Shown: in pieces, positions 12,297 through 42,224 of the stretch
Position numbering within the stretch: the stretch's first letter is position 1
Layout: every line of letters starts with the position of its first letter
NCBI GenBank assembly: GCA_051294375.1
Contig: CM119267.1
Span: 12,050,311 to 12,114,310 of the forward strand
Source: Paraspadella gotoi
Taxonomy: Eukaryota; Animalia; Chaetognatha
Length of the DNA: 64,000 nucleotides
Direction: 5' to 3'
The notes under the pieces: generated by a model
The model's database searches: none
Told to the model about the DNA's origin: nothing
Seen by the model: only the letters and a program-made list of their open reading frames with translations
Translations under genes and position numbers: made by a program

Positions 12297-15200
12297 ATGA
12301 GTTTGCGCCGTCACAAAGTTCGAGTCGTCAAACTCCTTCTTTCCGTCGTCTTCGTCGGAGTCGTCGTCCCCAATTTGATTCGACTCACTTTTCCCGTTCG
12401 ACCGGAAATGGACGCGTCGCCTTTGATGGCCCCGCCCTCTCGTCACTATCGAAATTTTCCGCGGCAAATTCACCAGGTGATTTACGGTGGGTTTTGGGGA
12501 ACGTCTCGGCCCTTTATATTTTGACTAGATTCACAACCACTTACGTGAAAACTAATTGTTCATTATTTCCTCATTTGGAATTACTTAAATAAAAATTATG
12601 ACCTTTCGTTTAGTGGTTAATAAGAAAGTAAACCGATTTTGGTCAACGTTTGAACCGTCGCGTCGTCTCGGCACCGAATCGGCCCACGATTTCCGGTCGT
12701 CGTCGTCGTCGCCGTCGCCGTTGAAGGACGTCGTTGATTCCCCGGCGATCAAAATAGAAGGGAAAAATATTTTTAGAGCCAAAGGCATTGAATTAAGAGG
12801 TCGGGGGTGTTGGAGACAAGATCCCCATTGAGCTTAAAAACGACAAAAAAAAAATAAAGAAAGAAAAAAAAACAATCTCTTTTCTCTCGTCTCTTCGGAG
12901 ACTTCGCTTTCTCGGACAAGAGGCCGAGCGTGGAGATTTTCTCATCGCCTTAACGATCTACCTGACTCGTTGGGGTCTCTCTCTCTCTCTCTCTCTCTCT
13001 CTCTCTCTCTCCTCTCTCTCTTCTCTCTCTCTCTCTCTCTCTCTCTCTCTCTCTCTCTCTCTCTCCTCTCTCTCTCTCTCTCTCTCTCTCTCTCTCGTCA
13101 TCTCTCTCTCTTCTCTTCTCCTCTCTCTCTCTCCTTCTCTCGTCTCACACACTTTTTTCCATTAGGCAATAAACCGCCTTTCTCTGGGAAGAAGGAAGAT
13201 ATTCAAAAAATGGAAGCGCGCGAGGAAGTGAGTTGAGGTTCAAGGTGAGTTCCCTCTTCCTCCCTCTTTCAACCTCTCTTTTCATTCCATCTCTATCTCG
13301 CTCTCGCTCAAAAAGACGCGCGTCGGGATGAAAAACAGCCTCGTGTAAAGTCTAGTCGGTTCGCGAATAATTTTTCGACTCTGCGATAAACAACGAGAAT
13401 TGCTGCTGTAAACAATTTTTTTTTCATTTTTTAAAAACTTTTTAGTTTTTCTTTTTTTTCCTCGATGATCGTCGTCGTCATTATTTTCCACGATAACCGG
13501 AACATTAAAAGGTTGATGCTTATTTCTTCCTCTTTCGTGACGGAAGGGAATTCTGCTTCCGTCTCTTAGCAACCCGGTCGCCCTTTTTCGCGCCTTCGAA
13601 AAAAAGACTCGAGTAACTTTAAGGAAAAAGTTTTTTTTTTCATGTTAAAGACACACACTACTAGATACAATCGGTTCTGGTTTGTATTTCGTGTATCCTC
13701 AACGACATCAAAAACGACAAAATCAACATACGATTTTTGTTTCCTTTTTAATATTTTTTTTTCTTTTCATGTCGCAAATTTTTAGAACGTTTCGTGGACG
13801 CTCAGATTCCGTTTGGTCAGAACGGATTGGACAAAGTCCAGAAACAAGAATCCAAGGTGGAAAAATTAATAAACTTCTAACATTGTCAGCTCGAATATTT
13901 ATTTTTTATCAAATAACAAAAAAAATCAGCCTTTTTTCGGAAGAATTTTTTCCTTTTTTCCGGCCGCTATGTCGCTCGTGAGCTCCCGACGAATCGGCGT
14001 CGGTTTAACCGCCAAGAAAATCGAAAACAAAAGAACAAAAGAGGTAGGAAATAAAACGGGGAGAGACCCGAGACGCGAAAAGGATAACAAAGTGAAGAAC
14101 AATGAGGAGAACAAATATGAAGTGGGAGGAGGAGAGGAGATAAATAAAAGCGACAACAAAGGAAACGTCGAGAAGGAAAAGGAAGAGACAAAGACGAAGG
14201 AGGAAAGGAGTTTGGGTGAGGAGGAGGAGGAGGAGGAAGGAGGAAAAGAGAGAAAAGAAGTCGAGTCTGACGAAAGGAAAGAGAAAAAGAAACCCGAAGG
14301 GAAGTCGCAACCGGGGATTGGAAAAGAAGAAAAGAAAAAGGAAATTAAAGATAAAAAGGACGTTGATAATCGAGATATGAAAGAGGACGGGGATAATGGA
14401 GATCGAAGCAAGAAAGAAATGGAAGAGAAAATGCATGATGAGAGAGAAAATGAGAAGAAAGAGATTTGCGAGAATAACAAGGAAAGAGAAGAGAATGAAA
14501 AGATAAGTGACCGCGATGAGAAAGAGGATAACGAGAAAAAAGAGAAAAAAGAAGAGAAAAAGGCGGAGGAAAAGAAAGAGAGAAGCGAGATCCAAGATCA
14601 GAAAGAGGATAACGAGAAAAAAGAGAAAAAAGAAGAGAAAAAGGCGGAGGAAAAGAAAGAGAGAAGCGAGATCCAAGATAAGGCAATGGAGAAAGCGACG
14701 AGTTCACCGACGTCAGCCGAAAGAAAAGAAAAAAATGGAGAAAATGAAAAACGTCGAGGCGCCGCCCGACGACGGAAGAACGCCGTGGACGAAGCCGCGC
14801 CGAAGACGACGACCGACTTCATGCGCGCGAAGCTGTCGCGGGTTCGCCTCTCGCTTCTGGAGCTGACGGCGCCGCTTCGGCCAAGAACCGCGCCGGGGAT
14901 GTTCGTGCCGGCGACGTTCCACGACTACGCCACCTACTGCGACGTCTCTGCCGCCAGGATCCTAGTGGAAGAGAGCGACGCGCAGGTCAGTGGAGGACGG
15001 CGTCGTCGTTGTCGTCGACATTACTCATTTTCTGCCGTTTTCGTCATAATCAATAGCCTTGATTACGAGCTGTTAGACCCAATTGGCCGCCTCCCTTTCT
15101 CTCTGTCTCTGTCCTGCTCTGTTCTCTCTTTCTGTCTCTCTCTGTCCCTCCTCTCTCTCTCTCTCTCTCTCTCTCTCTCTCTCTCTCCTCTCTCTCTCTC

Positions 15201-42200: not shown

Positions 42201-42224
42201 CGACATTCGTCACCCGGATTGCAG
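12297..42224 (+). CDS. GALNT10: Polypeptide N-acetylgalactosaminyltransferase, GALNT10-like, 5' part (exons 1-4); catalytic exons not in the window
   Basis: Exon 1, 12297-12476: [30 protein letters not shown]... (type II TM anchor, cf. GALNT10 MRRKEKRLLQAVALVLAALVLLPNV). Exon 2, 12625-12799: stem region. Exon 3, 34830-34888: GPKKIDWHD(Y)[10 protein letters not shown], with a 1-nt deletion at ~34855. Exon 4, 42074-42224: [51 protein letters not shown]. Intron phases 0, 1, 1 are compatible. Confidence 0.85.
13561..13573 (+). promoter_or_regulatory. RFX X-box-like motif upstream of the nested K/E-rich gene
   Basis: gtctcttagcaac has a perfect RGYAAC half-site and lies ~400 bp upstream of ATG 13969. 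Confidence 0.4.
13969..18049 (+). CDS. Uncharacterised protein with a long Lys/Glu-rich N-terminus and a globular-looking C-terminus, 5 exons, nested in GALNT intron 2
   Basis: Exons 13969-14985, 16225-16251 (27-nt microexon), 16395-16514, 17158-17411 and 17857-18049 join with no stops. Ends ...[94 protein letters not shown]. Exon 1 has an 81-nt internal tandem duplication at ~14521-14680. Confidence 0.8.
15765..15975 (+). mobile_element. tRNA(Met)-derived SINE-like element
   Basis: A-box tggctaattgag (15769-15780), anticodon loop ctcataa (CAT) and B-box ggttcaactcc (15813-15823). The GC-rich body carries small hairpins (cggc-cgtaa-gccg and cgcc-ttcg-gggcg). Confidence 0.6.
16921..17134. repeat. 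Intronic tandem repeats: 11-bp tttaagtattc units, then ~33-bp cctcctgctacctcctttaatcttt.. units (x4)
   Basis: Directly visible. ggctttg heptamers also occur at ~16794-16831. Confidence 0.8.
18716..19079 (+). CDS. DYNLL: Dynein light chain LC8, copy 2, nested in GALNT intron 2
   Basis: Exon 18716-18796 gives [27 protein letters not shown] and exon 18891-19079 gives ALEKYNIEK...LLFKSG*. The intron position matches copy 1. Compensating -1/+1 indels at ~18945 and ~18979 are probable errors. Confidence 0.95.
19960..33204 (+). CDS. Kelch-like protein (BTB-BACK-Kelch, KLHL family Cullin3 adaptor), nested in GALNT intron 2
   Basis: BTB exons 19960-20014, 20474-20622 and 20766-21046 ([32 protein letters not shown]...ALDFIYTG). 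BACK exon 23935-24490 ([16 protein letters not shown]...[12 protein letters not shown]...LLSRVRL). Kelch exons 24569-24764, 24987-25305, 29422-29588 and 32229-32361 ([36 protein letters not shown]). The last exon, 33051-33204, is tentative. Confidence 0.88.
25574..25663 (+). repeat. Copy of the ~135-bp dispersed repeat (5'-truncated)
   Basis: taaccaccaaagcctgtccaaagtcagggg...gtaccaatttcata. Confidence 0.8.
25761..28500 (+). repeat. Indel-rich second copy of 22593-25333, including frameshifted Kelch exons at 27104-28473; probable assembly duplication
   Basis: Colinear near-identity with 22593-25333, differing mostly by 1-nt indels. Starts right after a 25-N gap (25735-25759). Confidence 0.85.
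35880..36100. mobile_element. Degenerate palindromic core of the foldback MITE family
   Basis: ccggattcgcatttcattgtaaaaagtt...taagttggtcaaaa and ttttaaccaacttaa...aactttttgtaaggaattcaaatccgg form an inverted pair similar to 5870-6125. Confidence 0.6.
36238..36832. mobile_element. Foldback hAT-type MITE, 595 bp
   Basis: TIRs taaggcgtggt ... actacgcctta, flanked by the 8-bp direct repeat ctggacag (36230-36237, 36833-36840). Internal inverted arms: gcagatttggattcg.. and ..gaattcaaatctgc. Confidence 0.85.
37397..37531 (+). repeat. Longest copy (~135 bp) of the dispersed repeat
   Basis: cagggacccgctatgccattatcttgtaagagtgatggaggccttaaaccaccaaagcc...ccaatttcata. Confidence 0.85.
38753..41739 (-). 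CDS. Candidate antisense nested gene of unknown function in GALNT intron 3 (frames broken by indels)
   Basis: Protein-like minus-strand blocks: [35 protein letters not shown] (~41343-41200); [46 protein letters not shown] (~39920-39670); and terminal [27 protein letters not shown]...[20 protein letters not shown] (~39100-38753). Candidate donors at ~41101, 39186 and 39126. Start codon uncertain (41739 or 41343). Confidence 0.4.
40505..41097. repeat. C-rich minisatellite with a ~45-50-bp unit (ccccatgatcccctttcctaatccctttcccctacaatccccagcattc)
   Basis: About a dozen degenerate units are visible. A noisy second copy lies at ~60845-61475. Confidence 0.85.

What the first reader, a model, noticed from the sequence alone, without database searches (positions are those of the whole stretch)
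12297..42224. GALNT10-like host gene carries a nested gene cluster, three genes on the same strand
Seen: the GALNT TM-anchor and stem exons (12297-12799) join in compatible phase to the KIDWHD exon (34830) and the [19 protein letters not shown] exon (42074). Intron 2 (12800-34829) holds three complete multi-exon + strand genes: the K/E-rich protein, LC8 copy 2 and BTB-Kelch. Established: nested genes are usually single and more often antisense to the host. Inference: the host pre-mRNA must skip about 16 sense-strand exons and three 3' ends. That implies tissue-restricted expression, regulated poly(A) read-through, recursive splicing or chimeric transcripts.
Basis: partly seen in the sequence, partly recalled or inferred. 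Interest (0 to 1): 0.8.

Follow-up and report, generated by a model that had tools for sequence, protein, structure and literature searches.

The report
Three genes inside one same-strand intron
Three multi-exon genes sit head to tail on the same strand between the membrane-anchor exon and the later exons of a sugar-transferase (GALNT10-like) gene, so the host transcript likely skips them as one intron of about 19 kb; such nesting is known in flies and comb jellies, but here RNA assemblies run unbroken across the three guests, which likely makes them an operon-like unit inside an intron.

Summary
The layout is real; the host splice across it is inferred, not seen. A profile of 90 GALNT10 N-termini finds one hit among 1982 window segments: exon 1 at 12297 (E 4e-4). 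Nothing scores near exon 3. Three + strand guests lie between: a conserved K/E-rich gene (4 exons), dynein light chain LC8 copy 2 (2) and a BTB-BACK-Kelch gene (7-8). That is 13-14 exons, not 16: 25.8-28.8 kb is an uncorrected long-read duplicate, so the intron is about 19 kb. The Kelch gene stays in phase across all four gaps in the intron, and a second noisy read copy repeats the order Kelch, exon 3, exon 4. One probable RNA run shows the K/E gene spliced and exon 1 covered; its contigs bridge both gaps between the guests. The 12799-34830 junction could not be tested, and exon 2 has no homology support. Same-strand, multiple nesting is published (Drosophila, ctenophore); a read-through trio inside one sense intron I did not find. 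The scan noted an antisense nested cluster elsewhere in this genome (e1-10588303), not this locus. Verdict: new variant of a known kind, interest 0.5.

The parts
12297..12486 (+). Host GALNT10-like exon 1: ATG, basic N-terminus, transmembrane anchor; ends in phase 1
   Evidence: Only hit of ortholog N-terminal HMM; tblastn of P0003 1-40, 41%, E 0.025 in the window; X9 contig covers 12246-12478 at depth 3.4
12614..12799 (+). Candidate host exon 2 (stem), 186 nt, phase 1 to phase 1; may be optional
   Evidence: Open frame, AG/GT ends; exon-like CpG; no homology; no X9 piece listed on it
12800..34829 (+). Host intron holding the three guests; 22,030 nt as assembled, about 18,950 without the duplicate
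   Evidence: junction itself not tested in RNA
13969..18049 (+). Guest 1: K/E-rich protein with a conserved, unnamed C-terminal domain; exons 13969-14985, 16395-16514, 17158-17411, 17857-18049
   Evidence: Phases 0/0/2 compatible; X9 record 27 spliced across them; 14 hits at E<=0.001, 13 clearly homologous, named ones from molluscs and amphioxus; exon pieces collinear with the family
18050..18715 (+). Gap between guest 1 stop and LC8-2 start (666 nt), crossed by one RNA contig; four A[AT]TAAA hexamers; no AG in the 230 nt before the LC8-2 ATG
   Evidence: X9 record 27 piece 17855-18793
18716..19078 (+). Guest 2: dynein light chain LC8 copy 2; exons 18716-18796, 18891-19078
   Evidence: 79.5% and 94% identical to the exons of copy 1, which hits PF01221; the 48 leftover letters of X9 record 27 equal a spliced exon1-exon2 join (arithmetic); all four runs show single-base indels against the window at 18944 and 18978 (the contigs may come from either copy)
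19079..19959 (+). Gap between LC8-2 stop and BTB-Kelch start (881 nt), crossed by one RNA contig that stops exactly at the BTB exon 1 donor (20014)
   Evidence: X9 record 28, 19016-20014
19960..32497 (+). Guest 3: BTB-BACK-Kelch (KLHL-type) gene; exons 19960-20014, 20474-20622, 20766-21046, 23935-24764 (likely with a 78-nt intron 24491-24568), 24987-25305, 29422-29588, 32229-32497; six GG-type blades
   Evidence: Pfam BTB, BACK, Kelch_1 above cut-offs; best PDB hits KLHL3, gigaxonin; phases match across the gaps (with my arithmetic); X9 record 29 on 20764-21046 with 149 unlisted letters, the length of exon 2
25736..28815 (.). Assembly duplicate of about 22.6-25.7 kb next to a 25-N gap; not part of the biology
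   Evidence: 96% identity, 4.6 indel events per substitution, mostly 1 nt, frameshifts through the Kelch exons
34830..34888 (+). Host exon 3 (KKIDWHD...), one-base frameshift as assembled; strongest pyrimidine tract of the 14 acceptors examined (0.95)
   Evidence: ends inside the same Gly codon as the DWH exon in 8 genomic loci of other animals
42074..42224 (+). Host exon 4 ([19 protein letters not shown]), open; later catalytic exons are not in the window
44109..63084 (.). Second, uncorrected long-read copy of about 25.5-42.6 kb; artefact, but read-level support for the order Kelch exons, exon 3, exon 4
   Evidence: Collinear k-mer chain and BLAST pieces; 2.9-9.4 indel events per substitution, insertion-biased, transversions above transitions in 7 of 7 blocks, against 0.2-0.3 for the true LC8 paralogs

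Best explanation
Three multi-exon genes lie on the sense strand between exon 1 and exon 3 of a GALNT10-like gene, and the host transcript likely removes them as one intron of about 19 kb, while the guests are likely transcribed from their own start near 13.2-13.9 kb as a read-through, operon-like trio. Mechanism, inferred: the guests' 11 donors and 11 acceptors are balanced and mostly close together (introns of 78-2888 nt), so in a host transcript each guest acceptor would be used by its own nearby donor; the host donor stays free until the strong exon 3 acceptor appears. The limiting step would be escape from the guests' 3' ends, and RNA contigs show that transcription passes at least the first two. 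Separation by cell type may add to this but is untested. The cluster likely moved into the intron in this lineage. Shown: gene order, strand, phases, homologies, guest 1 splicing, RNA continuity between guests. Inferred: the host junction, the guest promoter, local pairing, single-molecule read-through.
For: Exon 1 is the only GALNT10-type N-terminus in the window and its four best matches are the unnamed group P0003/P0013/P0005/P0004 (59-64 against a shuffled maximum of 48). No alternative scores between 32498 and 34829. 12200-25333 has no gap; DNA contigs of X1 link guests 1-2 (17039-18935) and 2-3 (19016-21445); the Kelch frame joins across the gaps at 25.3, 25.7, 30.1 and 31.3 kb; 31469-44083 is gapless and a second read copy gives the same order. 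X9 is spliced at guest 1 introns, has zero depth in four intron bins and at most 1.5 in 21344-22486, yet covers both intergenic gaps. In 4 of 80 metagenome loci that hold both the TM exon and the DWH exon (L041, L047, L057, L068) the two lie 0.6-2.0 kb apart, and none of the 80 loci has an LC8, Kelch, BTB or K/E-family hit, so the long, filled intron is not shared by those animals. Precedent: PMC8527503, PMC3814207.
Against: No RNA join from 12486 or 12799 to 34830 was seen; only 6 X9 loose ends were displayed (641 rows hidden over all runs), and the region of exons 3-4 was never laid. The X9 contig on exon 1 is short and shallow (233 nt, depth 3.4) and joins nothing. No listed contig bridges 12839-13179. 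Exon 3 is frameshifted as assembled. Three of 11 guest acceptors (20474, 24987, 32229) are in phase 1 and would accept the host donor in frame. A contig across two genes does not show a single transcript, and X9 is one run, RNA by guess. Sequence 42562-44083 does not match what follows the second copy (63085-64000), which suggests this assembly can mis-extend at a repeat. This organism's own full-length GALNT10 was not found.
Confidence: 0.6

Rival explanations
1. Interrupted host. The cluster's arrival broke the gene: transcripts from exon 1 end at a guest poly(A) site or splice into guest exons, and the 3' part is either dead or starts anew, from an alternative first exon such as the hydrophobic ORF 34232-34574 or from methionines in exon 3.
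For: No host junction seen; frameshift in exon 3; ORF 34232-34574 has a hydrophobic stretch and a phase-1 GT; three guest acceptors are in phase with the host donor.
Against: Exons 1 and 4 are open and conserved. The second read copy has extra letters at the frameshift and short-read contigs show similar one-base differences elsewhere in the window. The 34232 ORF is 78% pyrimidine with intron-like CpG (4.7 per 100), has a weak donor, scores below 1.7 bits on the N-terminal HMM and has only a sub-threshold DUF7775 match.
Confidence: 0.15
2. Intronic operon. The guests have no promoter of their own: one Pol II run from the GALNT promoter makes all four mRNAs. The guests are cut out by poly(A) cleavage and spliced-leader addition, while the host exons, held on the polymerase, are joined across the cleaved intron.
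For: RNA contigs bridge guests 1-2 and 2-3. Earlier notes call this genome an arrow worm (unchecked); in chaetognaths about half of genes are trans-spliced and 18% lie in operons (PMC12460157, passages). Splicing without physical continuity (exon tethering) is cited in PMC5126111 (passage; the original paper not read).
Against: X9 depth is 0 in 12962-13342, between host exon 2 and guest 1. There is no AG within 230 nt of the LC8-2 ATG. The X9 contig at guest 1's 5' end starts with genomic letters at 13928, and none of the 6 X9 loose ends shown resembles the published leaders. Coding gaps of 666 and 881 nt need long UTRs to meet the 250-bp operon rule. The taxon is untested here.
Confidence: 0.12
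3. Assembly artefact: the guest block was placed into the GALNT intron by a misjoin at a gap or microsatellite.
For: Five N gaps, three of 25 N, and two uncorrected duplicates; apparent mis-extension after 42561; 12839-13179 not bridged by listed contigs.
Against: The block is held together by splicing and frame, its 3' border is seen in two read versions, and a misjoin at its 5' border would still have had to put this gene's own first exon directly upstream in the right orientation.
Confidence: 0.07
4. Host made by trans-splicing of two pre-mRNAs (as recalled for Drosophila mod(mdg4) and lola): an exon 1-2 transcript that ends early is joined to exon 3 of RNA that runs on from the guest cluster.
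For: It would remove the need to read through three 3' ends; read-through between the guests is seen.
Against: No positive evidence; collinear cis order is the simpler reading; RNA continuity from 32497 to 34830 was not examined.
Confidence: 0.05

Closest known systems
Nested intronic genes of the ctenophore Hormiphora californensis (PMC8527503; passages read)
   Same: [quoted passage not shown]
   Different: Their figure example has four guests on mixed strands; the passages read give no case of three sense-strand, RNA-bridged guests in one intron. Their supplementary lists were not seen and may hold such cases.
Same-strand nested genes of Drosophila (Lee and Chang 2013, PMC3814207; parts 1-2 of 4 read)
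   Same: Same-strand nesting exists (about 29%); 50 hosts with phenotype data carry intron-bearing same-strand guests; guests sit in long introns; same-strand guests are testis-biased (58%).
   Different: 72.5% of same-strand guests are single-exon and multi-exon ones have a median of one intron; here three guests bring 10-11 introns and belong to conserved families.
Mammalian host/nested pairs (PMC11694760; passages read)
   Same: Guests favour 5' introns, orientation bias is slight, guest expression can cause premature host polyadenylation.
   Different: Many guests are non-coding, and pairs rather than read-through clusters are described.
Chaetognath SL-resolved operons (PMC12460157, passages; PMC2481426, passages and section 12)
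   Same: Head-to-tail same-strand genes with continuous transcription.
   Different: Leader addition not shown here, LC8-2 lacks a nearby acceptor, the taxon is from unchecked notes, and 'nested' occurs 0 times in the main text of PMC12460157.
Polypeptide N-acetylgalactosaminyltransferase 10 (GALNT10; PDB 2d7i)
   Same: Type II anchor, DWH motif, NGFN..SDKISL..LPDIRHP motif, phase-1 intron after the DWH exon as in other animal loci.
   Different: Catalytic and lectin exons are outside the window; the stem is longer than in all 90 orthologs if exon 2 is used.

Membership tests
Nested intronic genes (host/guest) | Guest genes lie wholly between two exons of one other gene | tested here: met
   13969-32497 lies between 12799 and 34830; both flanks match GALNT10
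Nested intronic genes (host/guest) | The flanking host exons are joined in mRNA | not testable with these tools
   The span exceeds the 20 kb that can be laid at once; no loose end at 12486 or 12799 among the 6 X9 rows shown
Nested intronic genes (host/guest) | Guests are real, spliced genes | tested here: met
Nested intronic genes (host/guest) | Order is true in the genome | tested here: inconclusive
   All links supported except 12839-13179, which rests on the assembly and on exon 1 homology
GALNT10-type GalNAc transferase | Short basic tail plus transmembrane anchor, stem, DWH and NGFN..DIRHP motifs | tested here: met
GALNT10-type GalNAc transferase | GT-A catalytic and ricin lectin domains | not testable with these tools
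   No such exons in the window (tblastn of P0002 and P0003); no whole genome held
SL-resolved operon (chaetognath type) | Same-strand genes with transcript ends under 250 bp apart | tested here: inconclusive
   RNA contigs continuous across both gaps; coding gaps 666 and 881 nt; transcript ends not mapped
SL-resolved operon (chaetognath type) | Trans-splice acceptor just before each downstream start | tested here: not met
   BTB-Kelch has AGs 45-109 nt upstream; LC8-2 has none within 230 nt, and the nearest is purine-rich with an upstream ATG
SL-resolved operon (chaetognath type) | Leader on downstream mRNAs | tested here: inconclusive
   None among 6 X9 loose ends shown; most rows hidden
SL-resolved operon (chaetognath type) | Organism uses leader trans-splicing | not tested
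   Rests on earlier unchecked notes
Canonical recursive splicing | YAG|GTRAG ratchet points in the long intron | tested here: not met
   0 strict sites in 12800-34829; 3 weak YAGGT sites; gap letters unseen; non-canonical sites not excluded

The most novel reading that the evidence does not exclude
An operon inside an intron, fed by the host promoter: one primary transcript yields the GALNT10 mRNA and three protein-coding guest mRNAs, the guests released by poly(A) cleavage and leader trans-splicing while the host exons are joined across the cut intron. This would extend the snoRNA/miRNA host-intron design to whole mRNAs.
Probability: 0.12. Interest if true: 0.85.

Novelty: new variant of a known kind. 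Interest (0 to 1): 0.5.

Why it matters
Selection against mis-splicing is the standard explanation for the rarity of multi-exon same-strand guests (PMC3814207). A locus where a conserved host must pass 13-14 sense exons and three 3' ends is an extreme case that makes the open question testable in one experiment: does the host avoid its guests by cell type, by local pairing of the guests' own splice sites, or by read-through and tethering? If the animal uses leader trans-splicing, the locus also tests whether operon machinery lets genomes tolerate parallel nesting, a link hinted at by the ctenophore data.

Tried and rejected
No whole genome held. and protein 1 used a wrong frame of exon 4; their blanks mean nothing. 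The look-up of sequencing runs listed no holder on record as RNA; X9 is a guess, treated as RNA because it is spliced. Only 12200-23600 was laid on reads, so everything 3' of it has no read evidence. Atlas searches for the K/E gene gave no hit at 0.9 or above (the TEX33/CIMIP4 row at 0.78 is below lead level); Pfam names none of five family members. One of the 14 hits (P0134, bacterial TPR) is treated as chance. A metagenome scan for K/E relatives found none (556 candidates, 0 confirmed), so guest synteny in near relatives is untested. The GALNT scan did not return P0003's own contig, so no leader test on a relative's mRNA was possible. Real segmental duplication rejected for both repeats. A (CU)n/(AG)n stem looping out the guests was considered and dropped: the tracts after exon 2 and before exon 3 are both (CT)n. 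A leech origin was my first guess from the Helobdella hit, but exon 4 scores are flat across spiralians (175 against 168-172), so the taxon is open. PMC1657053, PMC3409270, PMC3156134 (passages) and PMC13343718 (passages) gave no sense-strand nested operon. Literature searches listed none; no supplements were opened, and lists there may hold such cases.
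Full report
The window. It is eukaryotic, rich in (CT)n tracts, with five N gaps, three of exactly 25 N. No whole genome is held. Self-BLAST shows two large repeats: 22593-25333 again at 25761-28501 (96%), and most of 29-42.6 kb again at 45-63 kb (68-85%). Both differ by single-base, mostly inserted letters: 4.6 and 2.9-9.4 indel events per substitution, transversions above transitions, against 0.2-0.3 for the two true LC8 paralogs. That is the signature of uncorrected long reads used to fill gaps (established knowledge), not of real duplication. 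The first repeat inflates the intron by about 3.1 kb (22,030 to about 18,950 nt) and adds three false exons.

The host. Exon 4 (42074-42224) is GALNT10-like: best solved structure human GALNT10, E 1e-10; database hits Helobdella P0002 69% and unnamed P0003 63%, 2 of 20 candidates. To test the anchor exon without assuming it, I took the 120 orthologs listed, kept the 103 of 575-660 aa that start with Met and the 90 of these with a DWH motif, built an HMM of their first 45 residues and scanned all 1982 six-frame segments of 20 aa or more. One segment hit, the exon 1 frame (17.0 bits, E 4e-4; next best 6.4). No shuffle of 1000 reached it, and the 35 segments between the Kelch stop and exon 3 scored at most 3.5 bits. 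Exons 1 and 2 both end in phase 1, matching exon 3, so nesting does not depend on exon 2. Exon 2 has no homology and makes the stem longer than in all 90 orthologs, but has exon-like CpG. Exon 3 carries a one-base frameshift; the second read copy has extra letters there, and short-read contigs differ from the window by similar single bases elsewhere, so I read it as an assembly error (inference). No catalytic exons lie in the window.

The guests. Guest 1 (13969-18049, four exons) has a charged N-terminus and a conserved C-terminal domain: 14 hits at E up to 0.001 among 1.84 billion representatives, named ones from snails, bivalves and amphioxus, one bacterial chance hit; the exon pieces follow the family in order; Pfam does not name it. 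Guest 2 is LC8 copy 2 (18716-19078, two exons). Guest 3 is a BTB-BACK-Kelch gene (19960-32497, seven or eight exons, six blades). Total 13-14 exons.

Is the order real? 12200-25333 has no gap. DNA contigs of run X1 match it almost without differences and link guest 1 to 2 and 2 to 3, breaking at microsatellites. The Kelch gene joins in phase over the four gaps and forms whole repeats at the joins. Its last exon shares a gapless segment with exons 3 and 4, and the noisy copy repeats the order from about 25.5 to 42.6 kb. The one unbridged link is 12839-13179. Against this, 42562-44083 does not match what follows the noisy copy, so the assembly can mis-extend at a repeat. In 80 GALNT loci from metagenome contigs no guest family was found; in the 4 that hold both the anchor exon and the DWH exon these lie 0.6-2.0 kb apart, and in 8 the DWH exon ends in the same Gly codon as here. 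The filled intron is thus not shared by those animals.

RNA. Nine runs hold the stretch; none is on record as RNA. X9 behaves as RNA: record 27 (1705 nt) is spliced across guest 1, four intron bins have zero depth, and DNA runs go straight through. The same record continues through the 666-nt gap into LC8-2 exon 1, and its 48 leftover letters equal a spliced join to LC8 exon 2. Record 28 runs from LC8-2 exon 2 through the 881-nt gap and stops exactly at the BTB exon 1 donor. Record 25 covers host exon 1 (depth 3.4) and joins nothing. Contigs cannot prove single molecules or rank expression, and this is one run. The host junction was not seen: the span is longer than one laying allows and most loose-end rows were hidden.

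Mechanism. I favour ordinary nesting with a guest promoter and read-through between guests (0.6). The inferred solution to the skipping problem is local pairing: the guests' donors and acceptors are equal in number and close, so they would use each other up, leaving the host donor for exon 3, whose acceptor has the strongest pyrimidine tract of 14. The risk points are the three phase-1 guest acceptors and the 3' ends. No canonical ratchet site exists. Earlier notes call this genome an arrow worm and report operons and an antisense nested cluster in it (unchecked). Chaetognaths trans-splice about half their genes and have 18% in operons (PMC12460157, passages), which raises the bolder reading of an intronic operon driven by the host promoter (0.12). 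Against it: no RNA cover just after exon 2, no AG within 230 nt of the LC8-2 start, and no leader-like loose end among those shown. An interrupted host (0.15), a misjoin (0.07) and trans-splicing of host halves (0.05) remain.

What is known. Same-strand nesting is a minority in Drosophila (29%), mostly single-exon, yet 50 hosts with phenotype data carry intron-bearing same-strand guests (PMC3814207, parts 1-2 of 4). In mammals the orientation bias is slight (PMC11694760, passages). Hormiphora has 2357 nested genes in 1654 hosts, many parallel, with leader trans-splicing (PMC8527503, passages). Eight searches listed no sense-strand, RNA-bridged trio in one intron; supplements were not opened and most subscription papers are not held. 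The locus works like known nested genes and meets that definition on DNA evidence; it is not shown to be an SL operon. New variant of a known kind, interest 0.5.

Noticed in passing
window 7454-7880 (+): LC8 copy 1, two exons with the intron at the same place as copy 2; exon 2 is 94% and exon 1 79.5% identical to copy 2, a substitution-dominated true paralog. It also shows frameshifts as assembled.
   Followed up: partly
window about 8830-11220 (-): Protein kinase gene (PF00069) with a short-repeat N-terminal region, head to head with GALNT exon 1 across about 1 kb; possibly a shared bidirectional promoter.
   Followed up: no
window 1374-1490 (+): Exon of a ubiquitin-like protein (PF13881, E 2e-7; UBL3-like by recall), with a possible later exon near 3276-3400.
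   Followed up: partly
window 34830-34888: After the frameshift, exon 3 reads three in-frame methionines in ten residues where the orthologs printed have none; could allow an anchor-less start if this acceptor received a leader. Speculative.
   Followed up: no
window 15680-16150: Very high-copy repeat in guest 1 intron 1 (DNA contig depth up to about 200,000 in X1, also high in X9), probably a SINE-like element; earlier notes describe such families in this genome.
   Followed up: no
window 1546-1646, 6595-6700, 25575-25663, 37426-37531, 42521-42677, 42856-42986: A dispersed repeat of about 100-150 bp in both orientations; the main and noisy copies part ways at one of them (about 42540), a likely mis-extension point.
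   Followed up: partly
window 33040-33204 and its noisy copy 50371-50577: GC-rich, codon-like stretch after a (CT)n tract; the noisy copy gives a hydrophobic frame, the main copy does not. No GALNT N-terminal score. Unexplained: regulatory island or unrecognised exon.
   Followed up: partly
window 14520-14690: A 75-nt tandem duplication inside guest 1 exon 1 (repeated K/E-rich unit).
   Followed up: no
P0122/P0136 (unnamed): Closest relatives of guest 1 (57-58%) lose similarity just upstream of the residue where the window's exon 4 begins, as if read from genomic DNA with an intron at the same place.
   Followed up: partly
L050, L052, L055, L068, L069: GALNT10 loci of other animals carry several tandem copies of the acceptor and first codons of the GPGE exon.
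   Followed up: no
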